Assembly (NCBI GenBank): GCA_963706955.1
Contig: CAVPOC010000008.1
Coordinates: 704,001 to 768,000 of the forward strand
Length of the DNA stretch: 64,000 bases
Direction: 5' to 3'
Source of the DNA: an uncultured Verrucomicrobiae bacterium
GTDB lineage: Bacteria > Verrucomicrobiota > Verrucomicrobiia > Chthoniobacterales > Terrimicrobiaceae
Positions 21,170 through 52,620 of the stretch are shown here, one piece after another (the first letter of the stretch is position 1; every line of letters starts with the position of its first letter). Both the position numbers and the translations under genes were made by a program. The notes under the pieces are model-generated. The model searched no databases and had not been told where the DNA came from. It saw only the letters and a list, made by a program, of their open reading frames with translations.

Positions 21170-21239
21170 CCTGCAATCGGAAGACTGCCGTCGTGTCGTC
21201 TGCGCCGATTTCGCCATCCACCAGCAGTCTGCGGCTGAG

Positions 21240-27200: not shown

Positions 27201-29187
27201 AAACAATTTCCGCGCCGGTTTTCGCGATAACCTCATCAAAGGGTTCGTCCGTTATCACGATCTTGGCCTCGGCGTCTCTGACCATGAAGTTCAGCCGTTC
27301 AAAGGGATAGCTCGGATCGAGCGGTAGATAAGCCGCTCCGGTCTTCACTATGCCCAAGATGGAAACGATCATCTCCGGCGAACGTTCCATGCAAATTCCC
27401 ACCTGTGATCCAAAACCGGCCCCACGCGTTTGCAGATAGCCGGCTAATTTGTCGGCTCGTTCTTTAAGTTCGCCGAAAGTAAGAACCTCATCCCCGCTAA
27501 CCACCGCGATCGACTGCGGTTGACGCTCAGCCCATGCATCAAATACCTCGTGAAGACATTCTGGCGACGGATTCGGATTTGTCGTCGGATTCCACTCCAC
27601 AAGAAGCTGGTCGGCTTCTTCTTCGCTGAGCAGCGGCAATTCCGAAAGCGGTTGATCTGACTTACTCGCAGCCTCCTCCAAAAGGCGGCCAAAATGCCCA
27701 ATCATCCTGATCACCCTGTCGGCGTCGAAGCGATCCGGATTGTATACCACCTGCCCAGTTAGCCCCTCATCAGTCTCCCAAAGGTGCATCTCCAACTCAA
27801 AGCGAGTGGTTAGAGCCTTGGAATCCAAAAGGCTCACCTTGAGGCCCGCCGCATCAAAGCTCCTGCGCAAGGGAAGATTTTGTAACGAGAGCATCACCTG
27901 GATGAATGGGCTTTGCCCCCAACTGCGCTCAGGCATCAAGTCTTCTACGAGCTTCTCAAAGGGCGTATCTTGGAACTCATAAGCTCGTAACGTCACCTCC
28001 CGGGCTCGGCGTAAAGTCTCTCGAAAAGAAGGGTTGCCGGAGAGGTCGCCGCGCAGGATCAAGGCGTTGACGAAGAATCCCACAACGCCCTCGACCTCGA
28101 TCCGATTGCGATTAGCGATTGGTGACCCTACTACGATGTCGTCCTGCCCGGTGTAGCGATGCAAAAGAACCTGAAGCCCCGCAAGCAACGTCATGAAGAG
28201 GGTGGCGCCTTCCTCACTGGCCAACCGCTTGAGCCCTGAGACAACCTCGTGACTTATGAAAAAGCGCTCGCCAGCTCCACGAAACATGAGCTCAGGTAGA
28301 GGTGCCCGGTCCGCCGGAAATTCGAGTTTGGCAGCTCCATCCAATTGTCTCCGCCAGTAATCGAGCTGCTTCTGGAGGACCGCTCCAGAAAGCCAACTCC
28401 GCTGCCAGACCGCAAAGTCCGCGTACTGAAGGCCCAATGGACTAAGAGCTGGCTGCCGCTGCGTCACGGCGGCCTCATACAACTCTGCCAATTCACGACA
28501 GATTATCGTGAGGGACCAACCGTCGGTGACGATATGATGCATTCCCACCCACAAGAGATGTCGCGTGCTGTCAAGCCGATAAAGCCGCCAGCGCACCAGT
28601 GGTCCTACTGCCAAGTCGTAGGCGCGCTGGCCTTCCCGAGCGGCATCAAGCAGCGCCTCGGCTTCGGCCCTCTCCAAAGATCCTTTTTCGCTAAAATCGA
28701 TTTCGTCGAGCGACGGTTCCCAGTCCGTGGCTATCTCTTGAACGGGTCCATCGTCTCCCATCGGGAATCTCGTCCGCAACGATTCATGTCGGCGAACCAG
28801 CTCCACGATGGCCCAGCGCAAGGCAGAAAGGGACAAAGTTCCCTCGAGTCGCAAGCGCAAGCCCACATGATATCCCGATCTCCCGGGATTCATCTGCTCA
28901 ACCATCCAGAGACGCTGCTGCGCAAAGGAGAGCGGTAGCGGTTGACCACGAGGAACTGGGCGTAACAGTGGACCGTCCTCTCCATTGAAAACGCGCGACT
29001 CGCGAAGAAAATCCAAAATCTCCGCTTTTCGTGCCGTCAACTCTTCGCGAAGCTCAGCGGTCAGAACGCCTGATGGAGCGCTGACGCGCAATCGTCCCTC
29101 CTCGTTCGAAACTCGCAGATCCAGTTTCTGCAGCTCGGCAAGAAATTTCCATACTGGCTGCGAAGCCTCCCTGTGCGCCTTTTCCAT
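21240..29187 (-). CDS. NRPS 7: TubC-type docking domain-C-A-T-C-A-T-C(terminal); frameshift near 22354
   Basis: N-term FLAELQKLDLRVSNEEGRLRVSAP; HHIVTDG and HHIITDG; two A domains (manual codes DAFLFGLTVK, DAFFLGATFK); two GGHS T domains; final C with HHMAYD in ORF 21240..22412. Confidence 0.9.
22528..23231. repeat. 704-bp direct repeat, copy 1 (A-subdomain + T + start of C); partner 25729..26432
   Basis: Sequence appears identical by eye at offset 3201; identical shadow ORFs 22754..22993 and 25955..26194. Confidence 0.92.
25729..26432. repeat. 704-bp direct repeat, copy 2
   Basis: Matches 22528..23231. Confidence 0.92.
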
Positions 29188-29423
29188 TATTCGTTCAGAG
29201 CGATGATTTGGGGAACTGGAGGTGATCACAAGACTAGATCTTCGTGGTCGACGGCGAGAGGAGCAAAAGAGGTCTTGGCACCGCTGCACCGCGCGCCGTC
29301 GATATATTCCGCAAGAGCAGCGACGGTGGCATTCTCAAAGAAGACGCGCAGCGGAATATCCAGACCGGACGCACTTCGCAGCCGGGAAATAACGCGCATG
29401 GCCAATAAGGAATGGCCGCCAAG
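29149..29423. repeat. Junction repeat copy 1 (T-domain end + DHE[D/E]LVL tail + intergenic + MEKAxREASQPVW start)
   Basis: Homologous to ~40578..40851 and ~44027..44301. Confidence 0.9.
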
Positions 29424-32400
29424 GTCAAAGAAATCCTCATGAACTCCGACGCGTTCCGCGTCGATCACTGCGGACCATGCCTCGGCAACCATCTGCTCTG
29501 TCGCGTTACGAGGATGTATCGGTTCAATCGTGTCGTTTTCAAAAGTTGGAGCCGGCAGCGCGCCGCGGTCGATTTTGCCCGTAGAGGTGAGAGGAAGTTT
29601 TTTAAGAAGCACAAAGGTGCCCGGCACCATGTAGTCGGGGAGTTTGCTGCGCAGAAACTCTCGCCAGTCTTGAGGAAGATTGCCATTCCGAGGCACGATG
29701 TATGCCACTAGCTGGCGTTCTCCCAGGTCGCTTTCGCGCGCCACGACGATGACAGCCTCGACATCAGGATGGCGGCCCAGAGCAACCTCGACCTCACCCG
29801 GTTCGATCCGAAAACCACGGATCTTAACCTGATGATCCAACCGCCCGATAAACTCGATGTTTCCGTCGGGCAGATACCTTACGATATCGCCAGTCTTGTA
29901 GAGGCGTTCACCCTTCTCGGTTCCGAAAGGATTGGGCACAAACTTTTCTAGCGTCAACTCCGGGCGGTTGAGATAGCCGTGAGCTAAACCAGGGCCACCG
30001 AGATAAAGCTCGCCGGGCACGCCGATGGGCACCTGCTTGCCATGCTGGTCCAGCACGTAGGCGGTGGTATTGGAGATCGGGCGGCCGATGGGAATGGTTG
30101 CGGCGTCCTTCTCCACGCGAGTCACCGGATAGAAGATGGCAAAGGTAGTGCACTCGGTGGGGCCGTAAACATGAAGCAGTCGACGGGGAGGACCGCCGCT
30201 TACCAGCACACGGCGAACGGGTTCAGGATTGACGGCTTCACCGCCAAAAAGCACTTGCTTGACACCCTGAAAGATCCGGTCGTTGACCGTGACGAGTTCG
30301 TTGAAGAGAGCGGTGGTGAGAAAGAGGGTGCTAACTTTGTGCCGTTCGAGTTCGGTGACAAAACGCTCGGAATCCAGAGCAACGTCCTGGGGAATGAGCA
30401 CAACGCTGGCACCGTTGAGCAGGGCACCCCAGATTTCGAAGGTGGCGGCATCAAAGCAGACGTTGGAGAGGTGTGCTATGCGATCCTGCGGCCCCAGCTC
30501 CAGATAATTGGTATTGAGCACGAGGCGGATAATTGCGCAGTGCGGCACGGCTACCCCCTTGGGGGTGCCTGTCGATCCCGAAGTGAAAATCACATGGGCC
30601 AGATCCGTTGATCTCGCCTCCGAGGCAGCTCCGGTTGAAATCGGCATCCGCGTCCCTTCGATTAACGGCCAGTCCCTGTCCAGGCAGATCACCTTTGCGC
30701 CGGTTGGAGGAAGGGCTGCCTGCGCCTCGGCCACCGTCAGAATTACTGGCGCGGCAACTTCATTCAAAAGAAAGGTAAGCCGCTCAGCCGGATAAGCCGG
30801 ATCCAGCGGCACATAGACTCCGCCAGCTTTGAGAATACCCAGCATCCCAACAATCATTTCCAGAGAACGGTCCACACACAAAGCCACATGAAATCCGCGC
30901 TGGATGCCGCAAATTCGCAAATAGGCAGCGAGGTGATCGGCCCGCGAGCTCAGCTCCCGATAGCTCAATGTTTTCTCTCCCAAAATTAGAGCCGTCGCTT
31001 GTGGAGATTGCGCAACTTGTGCGTCGAAGAGTTGTTGCAGCGTCACCTCGGGCAGAGGCTGCGCGGTGTCGTTAAAATCCTTGAGTAGTCTTTGCCTCTC
31101 CTCGGAAGAAAGCAGGTCCAATCGATTGAGAGGCATATCCGGAGTCGCCACGGCTTGATCGAGCAAGCGCAGCAAGAGCGCTGCGATAGTTTCGGACCTT
31201 GCCTGCTCAATTCGCGTCGGGTCGTAGTCCATGCGGAGCCGCAGCCGCTCCCGGGGAACCACCTTCAAGGATAGCGGATAGTGTGTCACGTCCCGTGCCT
31301 GAATACCGGCTAGACGCAAACCATCCACCGGTTGGGTCAGCGCAGCGTTGTCCAGCGGATAGTTCTCGAATACCATGATCGTGTCGAAAAGCTCTCCGCA
31401 TTTCGTTTGCTGCTTGATCTCCGCAAGGCTCACGTGCTGGAAGGGTAAAAGTCGTGCCTGGCTCTCCTGAATGCCAGTAAGCAGCGTTGCCAGAGATGCC
31501 TCGGAATCCAGCCGTACGCGCAAAGGCAGGGTATTGATTAAAAGTCCGAGCATTTGCTCTACGCCCGGTAGCTCCGCTGGCCGACCGGATACCGTCACTC
31601 CGAAAACCACATCGTCGCGGCCGGTGAGCCGGCCGAGAAGCAATGCCCACAGCCCCTGCATGATTGTATTCACGGTGAGGCCTCGCTCTCGCGCCAGTCT
31701 CTGCAATGCATGGCAAAGATGCTCTGGCAGTTCGCTCTGCAAGAATTGGGGGGCAGTGGATGAGGCGTCTCGGTGCGAGGGAGACGCGAGGAGCGTCGGA
31801 CCATCGAGATCGGCCAAGTAGTCCCGCCACGATGCCAAGGCCGCTTCGCTATCCTGTTTGGCAAGCCAGGCCAAATACTCCGAATATGGACGCACTCGCG
31901 GCAATGCCGCCGGACTTCCATCGTCGCGATATAGCGCAAAGAACTCGCCGAGAAGGACCGGAAACGACCATCCGTCCAGCAGCAGGTGATGGTTGGTGAA
32001 GACCAATACGTGTTTCTTCGGACCAACACGCAGCAAGGTAAAGCGCAGAAGTGGCGCCTCTGAAGGCTCGAAGCGTTGCGCCAACTCGGCAGCGAGCAAT
32101 TCCATCCTGCGCGTTTCTTGCCTCTCGCCATCCAGCGCCGAGAGGTCCTCCTCTTGCCACGGCACCTCGACATCACGAACGATCACCTGCACAGGGCGCT
32201 GGAGCCCCTCATTACGAAAAGCCGACCGCAGATTCGCGTGCCGGAGGATTAGCGCGTTGAGAGCACGCTTTAGGCGCGCCACGTCCTGCAAACCCTCAAA
32301 CTCCATGCAAATCTGCACGCTGTAGGGATCCACTACGCTCCGATCAAAGAGCGCGTGAAAGAGTAGACCCTCTTGCAGGGGTGACAGGGGGAGGATCTCT

Positions 32401-35400
32401 TCCAGATCCGGATAGGCCACCTCCAATTGTTCCACTTGTTCGGCTGAGACGACTACCAGCGGGAAGTCTGAGGGAGTGTGTCCGCCTGCACCGGGCTGTT
32501 GGATATGGCGAATCAAGGCCTCAAGCGCTCGCCGCCATCCCTCGGCCAGCGATCGAACCTCAGATTCGGCCAACAGCGCACTTGCCCACCTCCAGGTCGC
32601 GGAAAGGCAAGGTCCATCCGCAGTGTCCAGCGCCAAAGCATTGATATTGATTAAATGACTCAGAGGCGTCGTCGGATCCGCTCCGCCATCGATGCCGCCT
32701 CCCTGAGCTAATGACCACTCTTTGGACTCCTCGATGGTAAAGCGTCCCAGATAGTTGAAGCCGATCTGCGGTTCGCACCGTCCAGCTAGGCGCGTCCTTG
32801 ACTCAGGATTCAGATAACGCAGCAGGCCGTAACCCAAGCCTTGGCCGGGCACCGCTCGCAACTGCTCTTTGATCCGCTTGATCGCGCGACCCATAGACGG
32901 GCCGCCAGCCATTGCTTCATCGATATCCATTAGGCCAGGGTCCAAACCCACCGGAAACAGGCTGGTGAACCAGCCGACAGTGCGCGAGAGGTCGATGCCA
33001 CCGGCCATGGGTTCGCGCCCATGTCCTTCAACGTCGACAAGTATTGGCCCATCGTTTCCGTGTCCGCGTGCATTCCGCCACTCGGCTATGGCCACTGCGA
33101 GCGCTCCCAAGAGCACGTCGTTAACCTTTGCATGAAAAGCCGCTGCTACTTCGGTCAGAAGCGCGGAGGTTATATTCGCCGGCAGTTCAATCCGCAAGAG
33201 CCCGGCGCTTGAAAGCGTATCGCGAATGGGGTCGAGAACAACGCCCGAAACAAGCGCCTTGTCACCCTCGAGAATGGCTTCCCAAGTCCGAAGCTCCGCC
33301 AGCACCGCCGGAGTCCGAGCCACTTCGGCCAAATGCTGTGTCCATAGCCTAAAGGGTGTGCCCACCGGCTCAATCTGCGGAATCTCGCCGCGGACTAACG
33401 ATCTCCAAGCCGTCGCCAAATCCGAAACCAGAATTCGCCATGAGACCCCATCCACTGCTAGGTGATGGATAATCAAGGACAGCATCCCAGGCTCGGCACC
33501 GCGGAACCAAACGGCTTGGATCATCCGGCCAGCCTGTGGGTCAAGCCGGCTTTCGGCCTCCCGCACTGCCGTCTGAGTGCTCTCCTCTCTCGCTGGCTTC
33601 TCGAGCCCGGCAAGGTTTACCTGGCTAAGACAGGCCTCGGCTTGGACGGCACCTCGTGGGGCGATCTGGAGCTCCCAATCACCCTCGGTATTGCGCTCCA
33701 GTTGCAAGCGTAGCATGTCATGGCCATCAATGATCGTCTGGAGCAGCGTTGCCAGGTTCTGCTCAGTCAGCTCTGCTGGCACTTCTAACAGGACCGACTG
33801 GCAGAAGCGCTCGATGGGCCCTCCCCGCTCCTGCAACCAGCGCATGATCGGCGTCGCAACTATCTTGCCGATTGCGTCTGCCGCGTGGAACTGAGATCCA
33901 TCATTCAACTTCGGGATCCTTGCCGCAGCCGCTAAGGCCTCCACCGTTCGCAGCTCAAAAACCTCGCGGGGCGTGAGCTCAAGTCCCCGACGGCGAACCC
34001 TGCTTACGAGCGCGATCGAAAGGATACTGTCGCCTCCAAGTGCAAAGAAATTGTCATTGATGCCCACCCGCTCCAGCCCGAGCAGCTCGGCATAAATCCC
34101 GCACAAAATCTCCTCTCGCGAGGTCCGAGGCGCGCGGTAGCCTTCGGTCTGCCGTTGCCGGGAAGGAGCCGGCAGCGCTCGGCGATCGATCTTGCCATTG
34201 GGCGTTAAGGGCAGCTTGTCAAGAATGACAAAAGCTGAAGGCACCATGTAGTCGGGCAGCTTCTGCTTTACAAAGGCGCTCAGCTCTTCGGTGATCCTAC
34301 CCGTGTTCTGCCCATCGGCCAAAACCACGTATGATACCAGTTGCTTGTCCTTCTCGGCCCGGCCGCTCTCGCGCACGCACACCACGGCCTGCCGCACCCC
34401 GGGGTGGCCGGCAAGAACAGTCTCGATCTCGCCCGGCTCGATGCGGAAGCCCCGGATCTTCACCTGGTCGTCGCCCCGGCCAAGGAACTCGATGTTGCCA
34501 TCGGAAAGGAACCGGCCCAGGTCGCCCGTGCGGTAAAGCCTTTCGCCGGTGGCAAAGGGCGAGGGAATAAAACGCTCGGCCGTCAGCTCCAGCCGGTTGA
34601 GATACCCCTTGGCCACTCCCGCTCCGCCTATGCAAATCTCGCCAGCCACCCCGACGGGCACCGCATTAAGATGGCGATCCAAAATATACACCTGTGTATT
34701 GGCGATCGGTCGGCCAATGGGAATCCTGCCCTCCCAACTCCGCTGCCCGGACCACACCTCATACCAGGTAGCAAAGGTGGTCGTCTCGGTAGGCCCATAG
34801 ACATGCAGAAGTCGTTGCGGCGGGCCATCACCTTCCATGACCTTTTTCACTGCCCCCGCATCGCACTCCTCTCCTCCGAAGAGCACATTGCGTAGCTTGC
34901 TGAATATGTCCGCCCGCTCATGCACTAGCTCGTTGAAAAGCGCCGTGGTTACAAACAGCGTCGTCACCCCATGCCGGGAAAGCTCCCCGGAAAAGCTCTC
35001 CGCGGACAATACATCTTCCCGCTGGATGCCCACCAGTCGGCTCCCGTTCAACAGCGCTCCCCAGATCTCAAAGGTGGCCGCATCGAAACAGCAGTTCGCT
35101 ATCTGCGCCACCACGTCCCCGCTCCCAAGCCGCACGTAGTCGCTATTGATGACAAGCCGGTTGACTGCCCGGTGTGGCACCATTACCCCCTTGGGCATCC
35201 CTGTCGATCCAGAGGTGTACATCACATAGGCTACCTCCTCAGGCCCTGCCATATACGCGTCTTGCTTAGCTCTGCTGCCGCCAAGCCTCCTTATCGACTC
35301 CCAATCCCCATCCAGGCACACGCTTCGAACCGGCCTGCCGGAAAACCGCCAGGTCAGCCCTTGGCTGGTCAGCACAACCCCGGCCCCGCTGTCCTCCAGC

Positions 35401-40355: not shown

Positions 40356-40362
40356 GCGAGGA

Positions 40363-40851: not shown

Positions 40852-43800
40852 CTGAAAAAAATTTTCATAGACTCCGATGCTTTCGCAATCGATGAGTGCG
40901 GACCAGGCTTGGGCGACCATTTTCTCGGTCTCGTTCCGTGGGGCGACAAGGCCAGGCCTTCGGTAGTCCAAAACCGGTGCAGGAAGAGCGTGCCGGTCGA
41001 TCTTGCCTGTCGGAGACAAAGGAAACTTTTCGAGGATGACAAACGCCGAGGGCACCATGTAGTCGGGAAGCTTCTCTTTGAGGAAAGCACTCAGCCTTTC
41101 ATTAAGTCCTGTAAAGCCGCCGCCATCGGCGGGAACAACATAAGCCACCAATCGACGCGTCTTCACGGCTCCCTCATCCTCTCGAACACAGACAACCGCC
41201 TGTCGGACTGCGGGGTGGGCGTTAAGCGCAGCCTCGACCTCCCCCAACTCGATGCGAAACCCTCGGATCTTCACTTGATGATCCATCCGGCCAAGAAATA
41301 CGATGTTCCCGTCCGGGAGAAATCGGCCCAAGTCCCCGGTGCGAAACAGTCTTTCACCTGGAACGAACGGCGAGTCGATGAAACGCTCTGCAGTCAATTC
41401 GGGGCGTCGCAGATAGCTGTGGGCCACCCCGTCTCCGCCAATCCAGATTTCTCCAGTCACTCCAATTGGCGCCGGCTCGCGATGAGAGTCCAAGATATAG
41501 ACTTGGGTGTTCGCGATCGGCCGACCAATCGGGATTCTGTCGGCACAGGTCCTATCGGCGGCAGTAAGGAGGTAGGTGGTCGCGAACGTGGTCGCCTCCG
41601 TAGGTCCGTAAACGTTCAGTAACCGCTGCGGCGGTCCGCTGATCAACACCTTCCTGACGGCTTCAGAATCGCATTCTTCCCCTCCAAAGAGCACGTTGCG
41701 CAAGTTGCGCAGGAGAGCCGGCCGCTCGTGTGCCAGGGCATTAAAGACCGCCGTGGTGAGAAGAAGAGTTGTAACGCCGTGCCGAGTCAACTCGGCAGAG
41801 AAGCGCTCGGGCGACAAAACGTCGTCCTGCGAAATCCCCACAAGTCTGCCGCCGTTCAACAGAGCGCCCCAGATTTCAAAAGTCGCCGCATCAAAGCAAC
41901 AATTCGAAACCTGCGCGATCACCTCCTGCGGGCCGAGTTGGACGTAGTCGCAGTTCACGACCAGTCGAGTCACGCCACGATGGGGAACACAGACCCCTTT
42001 GGGTGTGCCTGTCGATCCCGATGTAAAGAGCACGTAGGCGATCGCATCCGGACTGACCAGCTCCAAGGACTTTTCAGTCGGCGATGGGACACTTTCCCAA
42101 TCCGCATCCAGACAGATCGCCCGAAGACCTGTATTCCGAAACTGCGATTCGAGCGTTTTCTGAGTCAGAATAACCCGCGCCTCGACATCCGCGACGATAA
42201 AGGCCATCCGCTGGTGAGGATAGTTGGGATCGATGGGGACATACGCCGCCCCGGCCTTCAAAATTCCCAAAAGTCCGACGATCATTTCCGTGGACGGCTC
42301 GAGGCAGAACGCCACCTTCGAGCCAACGCGCACGCCAAGGCTCTTCAAATGGTGTGCAAGGCGGCTGGATTGATCGTCCAGCTCACCGTAAAGCACCTCC
42401 TGCTTTCCATACACCGCCGCCACGGCGTGCGGAGTGCACTTGGCTTGCTCCTGAAACAACTCGTGGATGCAGCGATCGCGGGGATAGTCCACTCTCGTTG
42501 CATTCCACTCTCTGGCAATCTGCGCCCGCTCCGTTTCCGTCAGGAGCTCATATTGCGAAATTTTTCGCCGCGGATTCTCTGCCACGCCCTCCAGCAAATT
42601 GACGTAGTGCCGAAGCAGGCGCTCCGCCGTGGACGCATCAAAGAGATCGGTGCTGTATTCGAAGGTTGTGGCGAATCCCCCTTGGCTCTCCATCATCACA
42701 ACGCTGAGATCAAATTTGGAAGTCCCGTTGTCGATGCGCAGCAATTCGAGGCCGACGTCGTGGATATTGACCGAGGGCATCGGAAAATTTTGCAGGCTAA
42801 AGCTGATATCGAAAAACGGATTGCGGTTAAGTTGTCGCTCCGGCTTAAGCTCCTCCACGAGTTTCTCGAAAGGAATTTCCCGGGAATCATACGCGCTCAA
42901 GGTGACTTCCTTGACCCTCGCGAGCAACTCGACGAATGTCGGGTCGCCGGAAAGGTCTGTCCGCAGCGCCAAAGTATTCGCGAAGAATCCGATCAGGCCC
43001 TCATACTCGCGGCGCTCTCGATTGGCGATCGGAGATCCCACCACTATGTCGCTTTGGCCGCTATATCGAGCCAGCAGCACTTTAAACGCCCCCAGAAACA
43101 CCATGAAGGGGGTCGCGCGCTCTGCATGAGCAAGGCGCCGGAGAGGTTCCACCAATTCGGGCCGCAGATGGGTTACGACCCTGGCCCCCCGAAAGCTCGA
43201 CTCCGCCGGGCGCGGTCTGTCCGAGGGGATTTGCACGGCCTCAGTGAAACCGGCAAGACGTTTGCGCCACGTTTCCACCTGGCGCCCAAAATTCGGGTTG
43301 GCAAGCTGCTGCGGCTGAGCGGCGGCAAAGTGCGCATACTGGATGGTCGGTCGAGGCAAAGGCGCACTGTGCCCACTTACGAATGCCTCATAACCCGTCA
43401 CCAGTTCGCGGATCAGAACGCCGATCGACCAACCGTCGCAAATGATGTGATGCAAAATCACCACAAAAATATGCTCTCGTTCGGAGCAGGTGAGGAGCTG
43501 CACCCGCCAGGGCGATCCGCTCGCCAGATCGATCGCTTGTTGCGCCTCGCGGACGGCTTGCCGGCACGCCGCTTCCATCCGCTCGGATTCTGGAAGATCA
43601 AAGAAATCCACCTTGCGCAGAGTGCCTGGGCGAAACGAGGTCGCGTATTGCACAGGCTCGCCGTTGCGCATCTCGAAAACAGTGCGCAGAAGATCGTGGC
43701 GCCGCACAACCTGGTTCCAACTCCATTCCAAGGCCTCTGCGTTGAATCGCCCGGAAAACCGGAGAGCCATCGGTGAGTTGTAGGCCACGTTGCCTGGATA

Positions 43801-43980
43801 GAGTTGATCCAAAAACCAGACGCCCCGTTGAGTATAGGCGAGGGGCGCCATCAGCCTCTCCGCCGCGGATTGGTCCCTTCCCAGAGGGCGATTCTCGCGC
43901 TCGACTCTGGCCAGTCGCGCGGCGAGCAGCGCCCGCTTCTCCGGCGGAAGAGAAGCGATCCTCCCAGCGAGGTCACTCAT
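40655..43980 (-). CDS. NRPS 5: monomodular C-A-T (frameshift near 40795 restores DHEELVL tail)
   Basis: MSDLAGRIASLPPEKRALL, HHIICDG, FTSGSTG, manual code DAFLLGVTFK, LGGHSLL. Confidence 0.88.
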
Positions 43981-44065
43981 GGCGAGGAGACCACGCGCGG
44001 ACTATCCGACACGCTACGCGATTGATCCATACCGGCTGTGAAGCCTCTCTTTGCGCCTTTTCCAT
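43973..44065 (-). pseudogene. Truncated remnant of the same docking mini-gene (MEKAQREASQPVW...)
   Basis: First 13 codons match the starts at 40616 and 29187, then the sequence collapses into ~50 nt loosely similar to the tail at 40363. Confidence 0.6.
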
Positions 44066-44301
44066 TATCCGTTCGGAGCCATGATTCGAGGAACTAGAGG
44101 TGATCACAGGACCAGCTCTTCGTGATCGACGGCCAGAGGAGCCAAAGGTGTCTTGGCGCCACTGCACCGCGCGCCGTCGATATATTCAGCAAGTGCAGCT
44201 ACGGTGGCATTCTCAAAGAAGACGCGCAGCGGAATATCCAGACCGGAAGCACTTCGCAGCCGGGAAATAACGCGCATGGCCAACAATGAGTGCCCGCCAA
44301 G
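44027..44301. repeat. Junction repeat copy 3
   Basis: Homologous to 29149..29423 and 40578..40851. Confidence 0.9.
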
Positions 44302-47300
44302 TTCGAAGAAGGTGTCGGCGATTCCCACGCGCTCCAGGCCGAGAAGATCCGCAAAAATCTCGCATAAAATCCCCTCTTCCGGTGTCCTTGGTGGACGGTA
44401 ACAATCCGCGGCGTGCTCTGGCGCGGGAAGGGCGCTGCGATCCAACTTGCCGTTGGCATTTAACGGGAGCGTCTCCAACAACACAAAAGCAGAGGGAACC
44501 ATGTAGTCCGGCAGCCTCCGCTGAAGGAAGGTCCGCAGATTGGCCGTCGACAATGAGGAGGCGCCGAGATCCGGCAACGACGGGATGTGCGCAGTCTCTC
44601 GTGATTCTCTAAGTATTCTTCGCTCCGACGATGGTCGGATCGCGTAAACATAGTAGAGTTGCGTGTTTTCAAGCAGAACGTCTTGATCTATGGAAAGATC
44701 ATAGCCATGTCCCTTAAGAAGGATGGTAATCGCTTGTAAGTTATCCTTGGTGTCAGTCTCTAAGACGATCTGCTTGATCTTTGCCCAATCGGCTTCCTCG
44801 ATGCCGCTGAGAACATCCAGCTCGCTCTTCTCCACGTTGATCTTGAGAAGATCTATGCTTTCAAGGCCCTCCTCCTGGATAATCTCGGAGAGAGCCCGCA
44901 GTGGTGCCTCAAATGTCCGGGACGAAAGTCGCAGGTCGAGGAGATCGTCACTGTCCGCGATCAGATCGGCCATTTCAGCAGCGCCCGCCTTCTGCTGGTT
45001 CGCCATATAAGTTTTTACCAGTTCTTTCTCGGCTAAGGGATCGGCATAGAAACCGGAAAAAAGGGAAAATCCGGGGAAGAAGGTGAGCGTGGCAGTCTTC
45101 GATTTGTTGGATAGCCCGCAGGGAAAAATCTTTGCGTTGGGCGCGTAGAGGGAGGCGTTGGCCGTTAAGATTTCACATGCGGAGGGATTCGGTTCGAACG
45201 CGTAGATTTTCGGCTGCCGGCAAATCTGATTGGCAAACAGCGTGAACAACCCGATGTTGGCGCCCACGTCAAAGACACAGTCTCCGTCTTTGAGCGTGAT
45301 TCCATGCCTCAAGTATGCTTGGCGCTTAAAGATCTCGTCGTAGAGATAGTCGGTCTCATGCCTGTTGAGATGAGACACGGCCATGCCATTCGGGAGGACG
45401 TAACGTCGCTTGGCATCAATCATTCGGCCCGGTTCTTTAGGAACGACATAGGCCACGAGGCGGTTCTCACCAAACTGATCCCTTGCCGCGAGGGCCGCGA
45501 CTTGCATGATCCCGGGATGCTGCTCCAAGGCGGCCTCGATTTCGCGCGGTTCGACTCTGAACCCGCGAACCTTGACTTGATCATCAACGCGACCCAAAAA
45601 CTCGATATTGCCGTCAGGCAAGTAACGGGCTAGATCCCCGCTCTTGTAGAGACGCGCTCCGGCCTCCTGGCTAAACGGATTAGGAATAAATCTTTCGGCG
45701 GTGAGCTCCGGATGATTGAGGTAACCTCGGGCCAGGCAAAGTCCGCCAATATGCAGTTCACCCGCCACACCCACGGGAACGGGCTTGAGATGCTTATCCA
45801 GCAGGTAAATCTTGGTGTTGAAAACAGGACGTCCCAAGGGGAGATTTTTCAGTTCTGTGAAGACCGCACTAGCCTCTACTCGGTAGGTCAGAACTCCCAC
45901 GGTGGCCTCGGTTGGACCATAGTGGTTCATAACGACACACCCGGGATTGAGCGACCGGAGACTCTCTATCCAGTCGAGCCGGGAAGCTTCACCGCCGAGA
46001 ATGAGAAGCTTGCGCGGCAGCACTTGCGCCGAGCGCGTGCCATTTTGCAAGGCGGCGAGGTGCGAGGGAACAATCTTTAGACAGTCAATGGCGTGCTGGC
46101 TGAAGTAATCGTCCAAAGCGTCTGCATCGCCACTCCTCTCTTCCGAGATCACGTGAAGAGCTCCCCCGCCACACAGCGAGGTAAAGACAACCGTGTTCCC
46201 CAAATCGGCTGCGATGGTTGAGACTGTTGCAAAGCTTGCGTTACGCGGCAGTTTCAACAGTTCCAAGATGCCATGGAGGTAGTTTGTTACCTGGCGATGT
46301 TCGACGGCGACTCCCTTGGGTTGCCCCGTGGATCCCGACGTATACACCACATAGACCAGGTTCATAGGCTTGGTCGCACGATGGGGGTTTCCCGCGCTCT
46401 CCCGCGCGATGGCGTGCCAATCCCGATCTACTACAATAACCGATGCTGGGGTCTCGATGACTTTCGATACCGTCCGCTCCTGAGCAATGAGCAGCGAAAC
46501 CTTGGCGTCCTCCAACATAAACGCCAGGCGAGCGGCTGGATAGCTGGGGTCCAGGGGCACATAGGCGCCTCCGGCTTTAAGAATGCCTAGCATTGCTACG
46601 ATCATTTCCAGAGAGCGCTCCACCATAACGCCCACCAGCACCTCCGGCCCTACTCCTAATCTTTGTAGGTAATGCGCGAGTTGATTGGCCCGACGGTTGA
46701 GCTCCTGGTAGCTCAGCTGCTGATCCTCGAACACCACCGAGACGGCTTCAGGCGTCTGTTCCACCTGGGCCTCAAACAATTCCTGGATGCACTGATCTCT
46801 CGGAAAATCCCTGTCCGTGTCATTCCACTCAACTACGATTCGATTTCGCTCGGAAGGCGTTATCAACGGCAATTGCGAAATCTTCCTCCGAGGTTCTTCG
46901 GCAATCGCCTCGAGCAAGACTTTATAACTTTCCAGCAGGCGCACTGGCGTCGAAGCATCGAAGAGATCGGTGCTATACTCGACAGTTGTTATGAGCCGGT
47001 CACCCGCTTCCACCACGACAACGCTCAAATCAAATTTCGAGGTTCCATTGTCGATTCGCAGCAACTCGACATCGAGGTCTGGAGCATCGACGTCGAGCAG
47101 CGGAAGATTTTGAAAGCTAAAGCTGAGGTCGAAGAACGGATTGCGGTTTAATTGCCGCTCCGGCCTAAGCTCCTCGACCAGTTTTTCGAAAGGAACTTCC
47201 TGGGAATCATACGCACTCAGCGTCACTTCGCGAACTTTGACCAGAAGTTGCACGAACGAGGGATCGCCCGAAAGATCGGTTCGAAGCGCCATCGTGTTGG

Positions 47301-48300
47301 CAAAAAATCCGATGAGGCTCTCAAGCTCACTGCGTTCACGGTTAGCGATCGGCGATCCGACGATCACATCAGTCTCACCAGAATAACGCGACAACAGGAC
47401 CTTGAACGCCGCTAACAATACCATGAACAGAGTTGCCCCTTCCCTGCGGGCCAGCTGCTGCAAAGACTCTGTCAGTTCCGGTGGGAGGTGAGTGAACACG
47501 CGTGCACCCCGGAAAGTCGGCTCCGCGGGGCGTCGCTTATCCAGCGGGATCAGTTGAGCGGCGCCGACCCCCTCCAAACGCTTTCTCCAGACCTCCACCT
47601 GGCGCCGCAGCGTTGCACCGGCAAGCTCCTGCCGCTGCCAGGCAGCATAGTCGCCATATTGGATCGGAAGCGGGGGCGACGGAGAAGTGTCACCGCGCAA
47701 AAATCGCTCGTAGCCCGAGAACAATTCTCGGACCAGCACGCCAATCGACCAGCCGTCGCAGATGATGTGATGCAGGACCATCACAAAGATGTGCTCGCGC
47801 TCGGAGCAACGAAGAAGCTTGGCACGCCACAACGGCCCCTTGGTAAGATTCAGAGGATGGCGTGCCTCGCGGACTGCTTCGGAGCGCGCCGTTTTCAGGC
47901 GCTGGGATTCAGGGAGTCGTTCCAAACTGATCGTCGACAATTTCGTTGGTCGGAATGGGGCTTCATATTGAACCGGATCGCCATTGCGCTGTTCAAACCT
48001 GGCGCGGAGTAACTCATGCCGGCGAAGAATCTCATTTAAGCTCCTTTCCAAGGCGTTGGTATCCAGTCGACCAAGAAAGCGAACTGCAATCGGTGCGTTG
48101 TAGGCCACATTCTCGGGATAAAGTTGATCCAGAAACCAAACGCCTCGCTGCGTGTAGGATAGTGGAGCGGGAACACTTCGATCTCGAGAAGGGATTCGCC
48201 CGCGGCCAGTAGTCGGACGCCCGAAAGCCGACAGGCGAGCAGCCAGCAATGCCCTCTTTTCAGGCGAAAGCGAGGTAATCCTAGCAGCGATGTCACTCAT
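44104..48300 (-). CDS. NRPS 4: C-A(Asp-like)-[FkbM-type O-methyltransferase]-T
   Basis: HHIICDG; manual code DLTKIGHVGK; MT insert FDVGANIGLF, FEPNP, IDLLKINVEKSE inside the A subdomain; LGGHSLL; DHEELVL tail. Confidence 0.9.
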   Translation of the reverse strand: MSDIAARITSLSPEKRALLAARLSAFGRPTTGRGRIPSRDRSVPAPLSYTQRGVWFLDQLYPENVAYNAPIAVRFLGRLDTNALERSLNEILRRHELLRARFEQRNGDPVQYEAPFRPTKLSTISLERLPESQRLKTARSEAVREARHPLNLTKGPLWRAKLLRCSEREHIFVMVLHHIICDGWSIGVLVRELFSGYERFLRGDTSPSPPLPIQYGDYAAWQRQELAGATLRRQVEVWRKRLEGVGAAQLIPLDKRRPAEPTFRGARVFTHLPPELTESLQQLARREGATLFMVLLAAFKVLLSRYSGETDVIVGSPIANRERSELESLIGFFANTMALRTDLSGDPSFVQLLVKVREVTLSAYDSQEVPFEKLVEELRPERQLNRNPFFDLSFSFQNLPLLDVDAPDLDVELLRIDNGTSKFDLSVVVVEAGDRLITTVEYSTDLFDASTPVRLLESYKVLLEAIAEEPRRKISQLPLITPSERNRIVVEWNDTDRDFPRDQCIQELFEAQVEQTPEAVSVVFEDQQLSYQELNRRANQLAHYLQRLGVGPEVLVGVMVERSLEMIVAMLGILKAGGAYVPLDPSYPAARLAFMLEDAKVSLLIAQERTVSKVIETPASVIVVDRDWHAIARESAGNPHRATKPMNLVYVVYTSGSTGQPKGVAVEHRQVTNYLHGILELLKLPRNASFATVSTIAADLGNTVVFTSLCGGGALHVISEERSGDADALDDYFSQHAIDCLKIVPSHLAALQNGTRSAQVLPRKLLILGGEASRLDWIESLRSLNPGCVVMNHYGPTEATVGVLTYRVEASAVFTELKNLPLGRPVFNTKIYLLDKHLKPVPVGVAGELHIGGLCLARGYLNHPELTAERFIPNPFSQEAGARLYKSGDLARYLPDGNIEFLGRVDDQVKVRGFRVEPREIEAALEQHPGIMQVAALAARDQFGENRLVAYVVPKEPGRMIDAKRRYVLPNGMAVSHLNRHETDYLYDEIFKRQAYLRHGITLKDGDCVFDVGANIGLFTLFANQICRQPKIYAFEPNPSACEILTANASLYAPNAKIFPCGLSNKSKTATLTFFPGFSLFSGFYADPLAEKELVKTYMANQQKAGAAEMADLIADSDDLLDLRLSSRTFEAPLRALSEIIQEEGLESIDLLKINVEKSELDVLSGIEEADWAKIKQIVLETDTKDNLQAITILLKGHGYDLSIDQDVLLENTQLYYVYAIRPSSERRILRESRETAHIPSLPDLGASSLSTANLRTFLQRRLPDYMVPSAFVLLETLPLNANGKLDRSALPAPEHAADCYRPPRTPEEGILCEIFADLLGLERVGIADTFFELGGHSLLAMRVISRLRSASGLDIPLRVFFENATVAALAEYIDGARCSGAKTPLAPLAVDHEELVL

Positions 48301-48307
48301 TCGAGGA

Positions 48308-51300
48308 TCAAAGGCGAGCCGGCACCGCTGGCTTGGGACGGCCGGCGGCCCTAAGTAGATCGGCCAGGCCCGCGAGGTGCTTCAAACCATCCATGGTCGT
48401 GTCGTAATCGATACCGAAATCGATCAGACAGGCAATTTCATCAACGCCGATCGCGGCAAACTTCTCAACCGTGCTCAGGCAGGATTCGGCAGTTCCAAAA
48501 AGCGAACCGTGTTCGTAGAAGCGATCAAAGGCGAGCGATAAAAGAGTCTCTTCTTCGGAAGACGAAAGTGGTCGACCTGTCGACGACAGAAAATCGAGAT
48601 GGGACTTGAGATACTCTCGAAATGGTCCACTCACAATTCGTCGCACTTCATCGGCGTTCGAACCGACAAACGCATGCAGCATTAGAGTGACCTTTCCAGC
48701 GGCTGGATCGTGGCCATGCTCGGACCGCGCCTGCCGGTAAGCGGCAATTTTTTCCGCCATTTCCTCCGCGTTGATTCGAAGGACCGCGGTCAACACATTG
48801 GCTCCGATGCGGCCAGCCTGGATGAACGTCTCGGTTGACCGCGTCGCAGTCAACCATACCGGCAGTTCCGGCTGGATCGGCCTTGGAAAAAGCACTCGCT
48901 CGGCCTGCTCACCGGTCCCGGTTTTTCCTCGGACCGGCTCCCCACGCCAGTAGCGCCGCACCGCCTCGACAACTTCGATCGTTAAGTTCGATCGTTCGCT
49001 GAACTTCTCGGGAGAGAGCATGAAATCAACGGGATGAAAGCCTGTAGCGAAAGCGATAGCAACCCGACCACGAGAAAGGTTGTCAACCAACGCCCATTCC
49101 TCAGCGATCCGAACCGGACTCTGCAGCGGCGCAATCACGCTGCCGGCGCGTATCCTAATTGTTTTCGTGATGGCCGCAAGGGCTGCCCCTAACACTGCAG
49201 GATTCGGGTAAAGCCCACCGAAACGATGAAAGTGGCGCTCAGGCGTCCAGACCGCAGAGAAGCCTCGATTGTCTGCGAACCGTGTCGCGTCAATCACGAG
49301 CTGATATTTGTCATTGGGAAACGCTGACTCATCACCGGAAAAGAAGAAGAGACTCAACTCTACCGAGGACGGCTCGGCACTGGATTCTGTCGGTGCCAGG
49401 GGGTCATTTGCGCGATTCGGCTCGCGATTCGGCTCCTTTGCGAGCAGCGCCGCGGCTTCATCAACCCGAAGAGCCTCGATCTCGGAGAGCAAATCTTCGA
49501 GACCAGGCACTTCGCTGGCTTGGGCTTGAGCAAGCGCGATCGACTCCGCCATGGCCAGGACGGTGGGAGTTCTCAAAAACTCGCCGACGGGGACGTCTAT
49601 CTCGAACCGATCTCTCACACGTGAAATTAGTTGGACGGCCATGAGCGAATTCCCGCCCAACTCGAGAAAGCTCTCACGGATGTCAAAGTCTCCAGTGCCC
49701 AACACTTGCTGCCATAGATCGGCCACTTGCCTTTCAAGCGGGTTACGGGGAGCAAGGATTTGTCGAACGTGACTTCCTCGCGGTTCCGCCGGCAATTTCT
49801 CTCCGTCGGAAGGCGCACTGGTCCAATCCTTCAAAACGAGCTTTTTCGACGTGCCGGTCGTTTCCTCCTTTTTGCGTTCGATCCAATAGCGCTGCCGCTC
49901 GAAGGGATATCCGGGCAACGCCACCCGCGCAGGCGGCTCCCCTCTATAAACATTTGCCCAGTTGACCGGCTGCCCCGCCAGCCAAAGCCTGCCCAAAGTC
50001 CAGAGTGCAAAGCCGTCTTCCGAAATCGTCTGGTTCGAACTTTGGCACGAGGAGAGAACGACGTGCTTCTTCGAAACCGCCGGATGGGACCTTGCCAGCT
50101 TCGAGAGGAGTTGGCCTGGCCCGACCTCAAGGAAGATTCTTCCTTCCGTCCGGGCCAATGCCTCGAGGGCAGGCGAGAAACGAATCGTTTCGCGCGCTTC
50201 GCGGGCCCAATAGACCGGATCCGTGAGGTCCTCTGCGGTTGCGCGTGTCCCCGAAAGAGTTGAGAAGAAGTTGGTCTCAGGCGCCCGGAAACTTATACTG
50301 GCCGCCACTCGCCGGTAGGGCTCGACGATCGGTTCCATCATCCGCGAATGGTAGCCATGCGGGACAACAATCGTTTTGTAAGCGACGCGTTGCTTGTCGA
50401 GTCTTCGCTTGAAATCCTCCATGGCCTCGTGGGGACCAGCAACGGTTGTGTGATTTGGACCGTTGATGGCGCCGATGTCCAGCGCTTCTCCCAGTAGAGG
50501 CGTGACGCCTTCTTCGCTGAGGGCCACCGCCAGCATCGCCCCGGGAGGCAATTGCTGCATCATGCGGGACCGCTCCCCCGTGATGCGGACCGCGTCTGGC
50601 AAGGAGATCACCCCGGCGACCGTGCCGGCAACAATCTCTCCAATGCTATAACCGAGGACGGATTCTGGCTCAACTCCCCAGCTTTTCCACAGCATCGCCA
50701 GAGCGTAGGAAGTCATGAAGAGAGCGGACTGGATATAAAACGCGCGTTGAAGGCAGACGCGGGCATTTTCTTGCCCCTGGGCGGTCGGGAAGATGATTTC
50801 ACGAAGATCGACATCGAAGCCCGCCTTAAACAATTCGCTGCACTCGTCGATGCTCCGACGCACGACAGGTTCGGTCTCATAGAGTCCGCGCGTCATATTC
50901 ACCTCGTGTGAACCGTGCCCGGGAAATAGGAATGTCACCGGGGGAGGCGGCCCTTCGAGGAGGCCGCTCGCGACACGCGACGAGTCATCGGATTCAATCG
51001 CCGCAACGGCCTCGGCAGTCGACCGACAAAGAACTATGCGACGCCAGGCAAATTCCGCACGCCCGGCCTGCAGAGTGAAAGCGACGCTCGCAAGATCGAT
51101 ACCGGGATTCTCTTGCAGGAATCGCGACAGATTTTGCGTCGAAGTCGCCAACGCGCTCTCCGACTTCGCGGAGATCACCAGGAGGTGCCAAGTGCGCAAA
51201 AGGTCTTCCTTTCTTGTCGATGGAGCCTCTTCGACGATCACGTGTGCGTTTGTTCCGCCGAACCCGAGCGAAGTAACCCCAGCGCGGCGAGGCCGGCTGC

Positions 51301-52541: not shown

Positions 52542-52620
52542 GGCCGCGACAAAACGTGCACTTCCACGCAGAATGTTTCTTCGTCAGGATCGGGCATAGA
52601 TGGTGTGAAATGAAAGATTC

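What the first reader, a model, noticed from the sequence alone, without database searches (positions are those of the whole stretch)
29187..48400. Three NRPS genes with the same entry and exit docking elements: a possible branched, combinatorial assembly line
Seen: the genes starting at 48300, 43980 and 40355 all begin MS[DE][IL]A[AG]RIxSLxPEKRALLAARL and carry closely paralogous first C domains (YTQRGVWFLDQLYPxNVAYN, HHIICDGWSIGVL, RIDNGTSKFDLS). All three end in the same tail, DHE[ED]LVL. Their payloads differ: Asp+O-MT; one aliphatic residue; three aliphatic residues with an epimerase. Known: short acidic/hydrophobic C-terminal motifs (SLiMs) dock with TubC-type beta-hairpin domains, and downstream of the PKS the only intact one is on the last NRPS (29187). 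Duplicated docking domains produce branched products in the vatiamide pathway. Inference: the three may be alternative cassettes between the PKS and the last NRPS, giving a product family of different lengths instead of one colinear 10-module product.
Basis: partly seen in the sequence, partly recalled or inferred. Interest (0 to 1): 0.9.

Follow-up and report, generated by a model that had tools for sequence, protein, structure and literature searches.

The report
Three interchangeable cassettes in one peptide factory
A soil bacterium's peptide-polyketide gene cluster holds three enzyme genes with the same entry connector and the same exit connector, so they probably act as alternative middle sections that give a family of products, though no product has been observed.

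Summary
Genes starting at 48300, 43980 and 40355 (minus strand) share a 23-residue N-terminal head, a distinct first condensation domain and a tail ending DHE[ED]LVL. Their payloads differ: Asp-like plus FkbM methyltransferase; one aliphatic module; three aliphatic modules plus an epimerase.

The window breaks genes 2 and 3 with single-base indels. Short-read contigs from other soil metagenomes lack most of them, and gene 3 then reads as one 3,708-residue frame.

The head fits the type 2 helical docking pattern. Its only partner-type element in the genome lies just after the carrier domain of the PKS (polyketide synthase). The tail is a short linear motif (SLiM). The only intact beta-hairpin docking domain (bHD, Pfam TubC_N) downstream of the PKS is on the last NRPS; decayed copies lie at both other junctions.

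The heads are old and under purifying selection. The tails are recent copies. Entry and exit connectors belong to orthogonal docking classes, so a branched, reconverging line is the best reading (about 0.5). It is not proven, and serial use remains possible.

Branching through duplicated subunits that keep the same docking ends is already known (vatiamides, wollamides). This would be a new variant. The scan also holds earlier first-reader notes on this same stretch.

The parts
56043..59834 (-). NRPS Cy-A-T-Ox (heterocyclisation, adenylation, carrier, nitroreductase-type oxidase). The open frame extends to 59966.
   Evidence: Pfam Condensation, AMP-binding, PP-binding and Nitroreductase; ORF list.
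52621..56064 (-). NRPS bHD(TubC_N)-C-A-T with a SLiM-like tail ...KDVFREEALL
   Evidence: Pfam TubC_N E 6.7e-15 plus C, A and T; tail read.
48308..52541 (-). PKS KS-AT-ACP-(helical docking element)-luciferase-like monooxygenase. The KS is split by a frameshift near 51824 in the window.
   Evidence: Pfam; frames; intact 1,450-1,451-residue orthologues in G001 and G002.
49433..49504 (-). Type 2-like C-terminal docking element GLEDLLSEIEALRVDEAAALLAKE. It follows the ACP directly and is internal, because the monooxygenase domain comes after it.
   Evidence: Alignment A2: E98, I99, L102, A/V107, L111. The same motif closes the upstream gene in 10 of 11 out-of-genus loci. Pattern taken from PMC11221535 passages.
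44104..48300 (-). Gene 1: head-C-A(FkbM methyltransferase insert)-T-SLiM, 1,398 residues. Head 48232-48300; tail VDHEELVL 44107-44130.
44027..44065 (-). Remnant of the first 13 codons of the bHD gene (MEKAQREASQPVW) between gene 1 and gene 2
   Evidence: the 78 nt after the stop are 68-71 of 78 identical to the other two junctions.
40655..43980 (-). Gene 2: head-C-A-T-SLiM. The window has one frame-breaking indel near 40792. Head 43912-43980.
   Evidence: Three of 4 laid runs carry an extra A behind 40792, which restores a 1,107-residue frame ending IDHEELVL.
40363..40654 (-). Fossil junction: spacer, decayed bHD (40435-40616, at least 3 frame changes), then a copy of the last ~22 codons of the PKS gene (about 40366-40434) just before gene 3's start
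   Evidence: Contigs of runs X5 and X6 agree with the window at 40491, so that break is real.
29226..40355 (-). Gene 3: head-C-A-T-C-A-T-E-C-A-T-SLiM. The window has five frame-breaking indels between 36355 and 38017. Head 40287-40355; tail VDHEDLVL.
   Evidence: With the five indels seen in other metagenomes it reads as one 3,708-residue frame.
29148..29432 (-). Copied exit unit: second half of the T domain, SLiM, stop, spacer and the first 13 codons of the next gene. Further copies lie at 40577-40851 and 44026-44310.
   Evidence: blastn 89.5% and 91.3%; repeat family D1; alignment.
21240..29187 (-). Gene 4: bHD-C-A-T-C-A-T-terminal C. The window has a frameshift near 22400. bHD about 28963-29187.
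   Evidence: Pfam TubC_N E 2.9e-16; PDB AerJ 8aqq E 3.5e-05 and TubC 2jug E 0.001; terminal-C clade.
20405..21253 (-). 4'-phosphopantetheinyl transferase
   Evidence: Pfam ACPS.

Best explanation
This is a hybrid NRPS-PKS assembly line in which duplication by recombination has produced three middle cassettes (genes 1, 2 and 3). Each cassette keeps the same entry end: a type 2-like helical N-terminal docking head plus a C domain of the clade that follows the PKS. Each also keeps the same exit end: the second half of the T domain plus a SLiM tail. Inferred mechanism: the three heads compete for the single helical docking element that follows the carrier domain of the PKS. Whichever cassette engages adds one residue (gene 1, Asp-like, methylated), one residue (gene 2, aliphatic) or three residues (gene 3, aliphatic, one epimerised). 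It then docks through its SLiM onto the beta-hairpin domain of gene 4, which adds two residues and releases the chain through its terminal C domain. The result would be three related products of different length, not one colinear product. What is shown: the domain anatomy, the docking-class assignments by sequence pattern, the duplication scars, selection on the heads, and intact frames in other strains. What is inferred: who binds whom, and the products.
For: (1) All eight head-bearing C domains from five genomes form one clade (100/100) with one internal C domain of G004. In each of the 5 genomes the gene directly after the PKS belongs to this clade. (2) The head has invariant I8, L11, L19 and R22. 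This matches the spacing of the aliphatic residues (i, i+3, i+11) and the basic residue (i+14) reported for CurH, Bamb_5924 and PaxB/PaxC N-terminal docking domains (PMC11221535 passages). (3) The PKS has E98-I99, L102, A/V107 and L111 directly after its ACP. This is the acidic i-1 plus hydrophobic i, i+3, i+8, i+12 pattern of type 2 C-terminal docking domains (same paper). (4) Pairing by adjacency: outside the genus, 10 of 11 head-bearing genes with about 10 kb of upstream sequence follow a gene that ends in a carrier plus this acidic helical motif. Inside the genus the figure is 7 of 10 junctions where a carrier was found. The three exceptions are gene 2, gene 3 and G001 hB, all duplicates that follow a SLiM tail. 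(5) Genome-wide there are three heads and one such helical element, and this is the only NRPS/PKS cluster. (6) The heads are 19-20 of 23 residues identical among genes 1-3, yet 9-11 of those conserved codons differ synonymously. That proportion equals the one in their C domains (0.43-0.56), so each head has been kept by selection, not by recent copying. The internal C domain of the same clade in G004 has no head, so the head is not needed for the C domain itself. (7) Gene 4's N-terminus is a bHD. The tails match the SLiM description of a short C-terminal motif with charged and hydrophobic residues (PMC9113145 passages). Tail, spacer and bHD start were copied as one unit. (8) At both extra junctions a cognate bHD acceptor was destroyed and replaced by a head. 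That would break serial docking but creates a parallel entry. (9) A relative repeats the pattern: G001 has two PEKRALL heads after one PKS, three REE-type SLiM tails for one bHD gene, and a 437-nt tail-plus-flank duplication at 98.4% identity. (10) The genes are intact in other strains. (11) There is precedent: a PKS cassette serving three NRPS partners in the vatiamides (PMC8341276 passage), and duplicated subunits giving a proven bifurcation in the wollamides/desotamides (PMC9205934 abstract, sections 6 and 10).
Against: No chemistry, expression or binding data exist. The gene order is exactly what a colinear 10-module line would show. G004 uses a C domain of the same clade as an ordinary internal domain after a T domain, so this C type can accept from an NRPS carrier. 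The tails are young: only 10-24% of conserved codons differ synonymously, and the non-coding 78 nt behind them are 86-91% identical. Their sameness may therefore be recency, not selection. The NRPS upstream of the PKS also ends in a SLiM-like tail (FREEALL), although the PKS has no bHD. Adjacency and docking class thus already disagree once in this cluster. [quoted passage not shown] In the window's own strain some breaks may be real. At 40792 one of 4 runs, and at 38017 one of 2 covering runs, agree with the window. The listed rows do not resolve the KS frameshift. The docking-class assignments rest on residue patterns, not on structures.
Confidence: 0.5

Rival explanations
1. Serial, colinear line: PKS, gene 1, gene 2, gene 3, gene 4 act in gene order and make one 10-unit product. 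The shared heads and tails are leftovers of module duplication. The mismatched tail-to-head junctions work through direct T-domain/C-domain contacts.
For: All genes lie on the same strand, tightly spaced, in colinear order. G004 has a C domain of the same clade as an internal second module behind an ordinary T-C linker. The tails are recent copies, so there has been little time to diverge. Module duplication is a recognised route to longer lines (PMC9205934, section 10).
Against: The heads are as old as their C domains yet stay more conserved: 83-87% identity against 63-81%. No helical donor element exists on genes 1 or 2. At both junctions a cognate bHD was lost, not kept. Docking classes are described as orthogonal (PMC11221535 passage).
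Confidence: 0.25
2. Mixed use: weak cross-docking lets the cassettes work both in parallel and in series (skipping or stuttering), giving a wider product mixture than three compounds.
For: SLiM-bHD interfaces are reported as promiscuous, and the rhabdopeptide system makes many products in this way (PMC9113145 passages). Both arguments above hold in part.
Against: There is no direct evidence. In the rhabdopeptide system the same docking class sits at both ends of a subunit, which is not so for genes 1-3.
Confidence: 0.15
3. Decaying or silent cluster: the frameshifts are real, the line is dead in this strain, and the repeated ends are only recombination debris.
For: The window shows at least eight frame-breaking indels across the KS, gene 2, gene 3 and gene 4. 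One run shares the gene 2 break and one shares the 38017 site.
Against: At 36355/6, 36975 and 37778 every covering run lacks the window's break (3 of 3, 4 of 4, 3 of 3). With five indels gene 3 becomes one open frame. Flanking housekeeping genes are also split: the GT4 gene at 16407-17607, and a kinase-Sel1 gene that is a single 987-residue frame in G004. That points to assembly indel errors. The heads show purifying selection.
Confidence: 0.08

Closest known systems
Vatiamide pathway (Moorea producens; Moss et al. 2019, seen only through PMC8341276 and PMC10127204 passages)
   Same: One upstream PKS cassette is described as interacting with three separate NRPS partners in a non-colinear, combinatorial system. 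Here one PKS is followed by three NRPS genes with the same N-terminal docking head.
   Different: As far as I recall (not from a call), the three vatiamide partners lead to separate ends. Here all three cassettes also share an exit connector aimed at one common terminal NRPS, so the branches would reconverge. The primary paper was not held, so I could not compare its docking sequences.
Wollamide/desotamide bifurcated NRPS (WolH to WolG1 or WolG2; PMC9205934 abstract, sections 6 and 10 read)
   Same: Whole-gene duplication with retained docking domains, followed by intragenomic recombination, gives alternative subunits fed by the same upstream subunit. That case is experimentally proven.
   Different: In the wollamide case the duplicates are the terminal subunit and have equal length. 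Here the alternatives are mid-line cassettes of one, one and three modules with both ends shared, and the recombination scars (a decayed bHD and a PKS 3' end) are still visible.
Rhabdopeptide/xenortide NRPS (Kj12ABC; PMC9113145 passages)
   Same: SLiM tails and bHD domains dock promiscuously, so one set of subunits gives products of different length.
   Different: In that system each subunit carries the same docking class at both ends and is used iteratively. Genes 1-3 here have a helical head, not a bHD, at the N-terminus.
[quoted passage not shown]
   Same: The residue spacing matches on both sides. The head has I8, L11, L19, R22. The donor has E(i-1), I, L(+3), A/V(+8), L(+12) directly after a carrier domain.
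   Different: The donor element is not at the protein's C-terminus; a luciferase-like monooxygenase domain follows it. There is no sequence match to any solved docking domain and no structure.

Membership tests
Type 3 docking (SLiM with beta-hairpin docking domain) | A structured N-terminal bHD (alpha-beta-beta-alpha-alpha, Pfam TubC_N) on the accepting subunit | tested here: met
   Gene 4: TubC_N E 2.9e-16; AerJ 8aqq E 3.5e-05 and TubC 2jug E 0.001.
Type 3 docking (SLiM with beta-hairpin docking domain) | A short motif (under 15 residues) at the extreme C-terminus of the donor, behind a carrier domain, with charged residues followed by hydrophobic ones | tested here: met
   ...AVDHEELVL...AIDHEELVL and ...AVDHEDLVL end genes 1-3, about 65 residues after the GGHS motif. 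Relatives have DREEFVL, EREEIVI and NREEVAI. Definition from PMC9113145 passages.
Type 3 docking (SLiM with beta-hairpin docking domain) | Physical binding of the tail to the bHD | not tested
ITC, NMR or pull-down is needed.
Type 2(-related) helical docking domains | N-terminal element with aliphatic residues at i, i+3 (in the turn) and i+11, and a basic residue at i+14 | tested here: met
   I8, L11 (before P13), L19 and R22 are invariant in 7 of 7 sequences. Spacing as for CurH I18/L21/L29/K32 (PMC11221535 passages).
Type 2(-related) helical docking domains | Donor element after the carrier with an acidic residue at i-1 and hydrophobic residues at i, i+3, i+8, i+12 | tested here: met
   E98, I99, L102, A/V107 and L111 in 4 of 4 PKS orthologues. 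Spacing as for PaxB L3304/3307/3312/3316 with E3303 (PMC11221535 passages).
Type 2(-related) helical docking domains | Donor element lies at the C-terminal end of its subunit | tested here: not met
   A luciferase-like monooxygenase domain of about 330 residues follows it. The same layout (carrier, helical element, extra domain) occurs at three other junctions in the genus.
Type 2(-related) helical docking domains | Helical bundle formed by the two elements | not testable with these tools
   This needs a solved or confidently predicted complex; see Tried and rejected.
Branched (bifurcated) assembly line of the vatiamide/wollamide kind | Two or more paralogous subunits with the same entry docking element but only one cognate donor | tested here: met
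   Three heads and one helical donor element in the whole 4.16-Mb genome.
Branched (bifurcated) assembly line of the vatiamide/wollamide kind | The alternatives carry different payloads | tested here: met
   Domain sets. Specificity residues are DLTKIGHVGK in gene 1 against DAF[FL]LG[VM]TFK in genes 2 and 3. The substrate names are recalled, not computed.
Branched (bifurcated) assembly line of the vatiamide/wollamide kind | Congeners corresponding to each branch are produced | not testable with these tools
   The organism is uncultured and no metabolite data are available.
Rhabdopeptide-type iterative NRPS | The same subunit carries a bHD at its N-terminus and a SLiM at its C-terminus | tested here: not met
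   Genes 1-3 start with the helical head; Pfam finds no TubC_N in them. Only the upstream NRPS (52621-56064) has both.

The most novel reading that the evidence does not exclude
Gene 4 is a common terminal hub of a diverge-and-reconverge assembly line. The PKS acts as a starter, as its position suggests in three relatives: it is the first gene of its operon in G001, follows only a terminal-C gene and a PPTase gene in G002, and follows a gene ending in a terminal C domain in G004. The PKS feeds three alternative cassettes. The thiazole-Ile line (Cy-A-T-Ox plus bHD-C-A-T with tail FREEALL) is a fourth feeder. All four dock by SLiM onto the one bHD of gene 4. New feeders arise by a recombination that copies both docking ends together with the cassette.
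Probability: 0.2. Interest if true: 0.8.

Novelty: new variant of a known kind. Interest (0 to 1): 0.6.

Why it matters
If the reading holds, this is a natural case of plug-in cassettes that use one orthogonal connector for entry and another for exit. One gene cluster would then make a small library of peptides by swapping its middle section. Engineers try to build this design with grafted docking domains. Here the recombination scars (a decayed bHD and a copied PKS 3' end) show how evolution arrived at it. The case is directly testable by heterologous expression with single-gene deletions and by peptide-binding assays. Near-identical DNA occurs in soil and rhizosphere metagenomes of 8 studies.

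Tried and rejected
(1) Complex prediction of the PKS ACP-docking fragment (alignment A2) with gene 2's head (alignment A3) gave no verdict: score 0.26 against a mark of 0.32, and controls were not run. It says nothing either way.

(2) Structure predictions of A2 (mean pLDDT 46.7) and of the head plus C domain, A1 (mean pLDDT 32.5), were too poor to use, because the alignments hold only 4 and 7 rows.

(3) A search of solved structures with the 45-residue head found only chance-level hits (E 0.71 and 1.1).

(4) A scan of JGI metagenome contigs for the chimeric fossil found 598 pattern matches but no relative. A first try was rejected because the query was too short.

(5) Stand-alone adaptor idea for the mini-ORF at 40363-40658 (bHD plus PKS-like end). 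I reject it for window-like strains. The window needs at least 3 frame changes there. Contigs of runs X5 and X6 agree with the window at 40491, and X5 and X9 agree at 40642. The PKS piece it copies is the extreme C-terminus, not the element I assign as the head's partner. With run X1's three listed indels one frame break still remains. X1's contig has a fourth gap that was not shown, so an intact copy in that strain cannot be excluded.

(6) Assembly chimera: rejected, because independent contigs bridge the junctions.

(7) Taxonomy: the Atlas lookup of SucC was ambiguous between Verrucomicrobiota, Pseudomonadota and Acidobacteriota. I did not name the organism.

(8) The vatiamide primary paper is not held.

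(9) A word search of earlier scan findings returned nothing.

Full report
**Layout.** The minus strand from 59834 to 20405 holds one hybrid NRPS-PKS cluster. In gene order it reads:
- Cy-A-T-Ox (59834-56043).
- bHD-C-A-T with tail FREEALL (56064-52621). bHD is the beta-hairpin docking domain, Pfam TubC_N.
- a PKS, KS-AT-ACP-luciferase-like monooxygenase (52541-48308).
- gene 1, C-A(FkbM methyltransferase insert)-T (48300-44104).
- gene 2, C-A-T (43980 to about 40655).
- gene 3, C-A-T-C-A-T-E-C-A-T (40355-29226).
- gene 4, bHD-C-A-T-C-A-T-terminal C (29187-21240).
- a phosphopantetheinyl transferase (21253-20405).

The window is G000:C8:704001-768000 of a 4.16-Mb, 15-contig genome.

Genes 1, 2 and 3 begin MS[DE][IL]A[AG]RI[TA]SL[SP]PEKRALLAARL and carry the quoted C-domain motifs. 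All three end in DHE[ED]LVL. Two details need correcting. In the window, gene 2's tail is in a different frame from its body. Gene 3 is cut by five indels. The specificity-conferring residues, read by motif anchors, are DLTKIGHVGK for gene 1. From memory that is close to the Asp code. Genes 2 and 3 have DAF[FL]LG[VM]TFK, which from memory is Ile/Val-like.

**Are the genes broken?** Twenty of 23 listed public runs, from 8 studies of soil and rhizosphere, hold part of this stretch. I laid contigs of four runs from four studies on 35800-52600. They differ from the window by single-base indels at the frame breaks:

| Place | Runs that differ from the window | Runs that agree with it |
|---|---|---|
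| 36355/6 | 3 of 3 covering runs | none |
| 36975 | 4 of 4 | none |
| 37692 or 37705 | 2 runs | a third covering run shows neither |
| 37778 | 3 of 3 | none |
| 38017 | 1 run | 1 run |
| 40792 | 3 of 4 | 1 run |

Applying five of these indels makes gene 3 one open frame of 3,708 residues. One of them makes gene 2 a 1,107-residue frame ending IDHEELVL. Flanking housekeeping genes are split too: a GT4 gene, and a kinase-Sel1 gene that is a single frame in relative G004. Most breaks are therefore assembly errors or private lesions, and other strains carry intact genes. The listed rows do not resolve the KS frameshift near 51824 or the gene 4 frameshift near 22400. Contigs from other samples bridge all three head junctions, so the arrangement is real.

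**What the exit end is.** The last 45 codons, the stop, the spacer and the first 13 codons of the next gene form one copied unit. It is present three times at 89-91% nucleotide identity. Only 10-24% of the conserved tail codons differ synonymously, and the 78 non-coding bases behind the stop are 67-71 of 78 identical. This unit was therefore copied recently.
- After gene 3 the unit runs into the intact bHD of gene 4 (Pfam TubC_N E 2.9e-16; AerJ and TubC in the PDB).
- After gene 1 only 13 codons of the bHD survive.
- After gene 2 about 60 decayed codons survive, fused to a copy of the last ~22 codons of the PKS gene just before gene 3's start.

So the ancestral junction was SLiM tail next to bHD. 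In two copies the bHD was overwritten by a segment made of the PKS 3' end plus a head-C domain. The tail fits the published description of SLiM donors for bHD domains (PMC9113145 passages).

**What the entry end is.**
- *C-domain tree.* In a tree of 28 C domains from this cluster and four same-genus relatives, the eight head-bearing C domains plus one internal domain of G004 form a clade with 100/100 support. Genes 1 and 3 are sisters (100/99). Gene 2 is an older branch.
- *Position after the PKS.* In all five genomes the gene directly after the PKS belongs to this clade and overlaps the PKS stop.
- *Partner element.* Outside the genus, 15 of 79 fetched loci have a similar head by my pattern. 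One of them (L045, with the head 176 nt from the locus end) was left out, and the other 14 were examined. Of the 11 with about 10 kb of upstream sequence, 10 follow a gene that ends in a carrier and an acidic helical motif such as LLSEIENLSPAEV. One has no such ORF. Of the three with shorter upstream sequence, one (a Lyngbya MAG, L046) follows a gene with the same monooxygenase-type end as here, and two were not informative.
- *The PKS carries that element.* The window's PKS has this motif, GLEDLLSEIEALRVDEAAALLAKE, directly after its ACP. E98, I99, L102, A/V107 and L111 are conserved in 4 of 4 orthologues. This is the acidic i-1 and hydrophobic i, i+3, i+8, i+12 pattern of type 2 donor elements (PMC11221535 passages). 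It is internal, because the monooxygenase domain follows it.
- *Pairing inside the genus.* I examined 15 head junctions. In 9 a carrier was found upstream: 6 carry the helical element and 3 (gene 2, gene 3, G001 hB) carry a SLiM tail. One search adds G001 hA to the helical group. Five had no carrier within the sequence held.
- *Genome-wide count.* This is the only NRPS/PKS cluster in the genome, with three heads and one helical donor element.

**Selection.** Among genes 1-3 the heads are 19-20 of 23 residues identical, although 9-11 of the conserved codons differ synonymously. The C domains show the same synonymous proportion (0.43-0.56) but only 63-81% residue identity. The linker behind the head is not conserved. 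Each head has therefore been kept by purifying selection since the duplications. The internal C domain of the same clade in G004 has an ordinary T-C linker and no head, so the head serves an inter-subunit role.

**Reading.** The entry end (type 2-like helix) and the exit end (SLiM for a bHD) belong to docking types that are described as intrinsically orthogonal (PMC11221535 passage). Each cassette is matched to the PKS on one side and to gene 4 on the other. No cassette carries a donor for another cassette's head. This predicts three parallel routes from the PKS to gene 4.

Relative G001 repeats the logic. It has two PEKRALL heads after one PKS. Three REE-type SLiM tails serve one bHD gene in the operon, and a divergent NRPS gene ends in a further SLiM-like tail, GEEMVF. 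It also has a 437-nt tail-plus-flank duplication at 98.4% identity.

I put this reading at about 0.5. Against it:
- The gene order is colinear.
- G004 uses the C-domain clade serially.
- The tails are young.
- The upstream NRPS ends in a SLiM-like tail (FREEALL) next to a PKS that has no bHD.
- There is no product or binding data.

That last sequence anomaly, together with the position of the PKS in relatives, allows a bolder reading. The PKS is the first gene of its operon in G001. It follows only a terminal-C gene and a PPTase gene in G002. It follows a gene ending in a terminal C domain in G004. In this reading the PKS is a starter and gene 4 is a hub fed by four SLiM-tailed lines (about 0.2).

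**Comparison with known systems.** Branching through duplicated subunits that keep their docking ends is known. In the vatiamides one PKS cassette has three NRPS partners (PMC8341276 passage; the primary paper is not held). The wollamide/desotamide bifurcation is proven, and whole-gene duplication followed by recombination was proposed there as a general route (PMC9205934 abstract, sections 6 and 10). Promiscuous SLiM-bHD docking underlies the rhabdopeptide libraries (PMC9113145 passages). New here would be mid-line cassettes of unequal length with both connectors shared, so that the branches reconverge on one terminal subunit, plus the visible scars of how each cassette was inserted. I class this as a new variant of a known kind.

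**Limits.**
- The docking assignments rest on residue patterns.
- Substrate names are recalled.
- The supplements of the docking papers (alignment figures) were not opened.

Noticed in passing
window 22518-23210 and 25719-26411: Gene 4 holds an internal tract of about 690 nt that is 100% identical in six consecutive 100-nt windows. It covers the end of the A domain, the T domain and the start of the next C domain. This is either a very recent gene conversion or an assembly artefact. The gene 4 frameshift near 22400 lies just beside it.
   Followed up: partly
window 52621-56064: The single-module NRPS upstream of the PKS has a bHD at its N-terminus and a SLiM-like tail (FREEALL) at its C-terminus. 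That is the layout of the iteratively used rhabdopeptide subunits. The PKS that follows has only about 12 residues before its KS and no docking domain.
   Followed up: partly
window 33994-34293 and 37182-37481: A 300-nt tract is 92% identical between modules 1 and 2 of gene 3. The five frame-breaking indels of gene 3 (36355-38017) cluster around the 37182-37481 copy.
   Followed up: no
window 16407-17607; 8040-11007; 62752-63697: Genes outside the cluster are also split by apparent frameshifts. A GT4 glycosyltransferase has its N- and C-halves in two overlapping ORFs. A Ser/Thr kinase-Sel1 protein is one 987-residue frame in relative G004. An ABC ATPase may be split too. This points to indel errors across the assembly.
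   Followed up: partly
L020 (G002:C93) 11834-13408: One relative encodes a stand-alone 525-residue protein made only of a bHD and the terminal-type C domain. A fragment of a T domain and SLiM lies just upstream, and the PPTase and PKS genes follow.
   Followed up: no
L018 (G001:C34) 116141-116640 and 108300-108734: A 437-nt stretch (T-domain end, tail NREEVAI, spacer and the start of the next gene) is duplicated at 98.4% identity on either side of the second PEKRALL-head gene of G001. This is the same kind of scar as in the window.
   Followed up: partly
L046 (uncultured Lyngbya MAG contig) about 1-1150: A cyanobacterial contig shows the same pairing: a gene ending in a luciferase-like monooxygenase-type C-terminus, directly followed by an NRPS that starts with an LSPEKR-type head.
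   Followed up: no
window 48326: Two of the laid runs (X6, X9) carry an in-frame GAA insertion near the 3' end of the PKS gene, in the stretch that overlaps the region upstream of gene 1's start.
   Followed up: no
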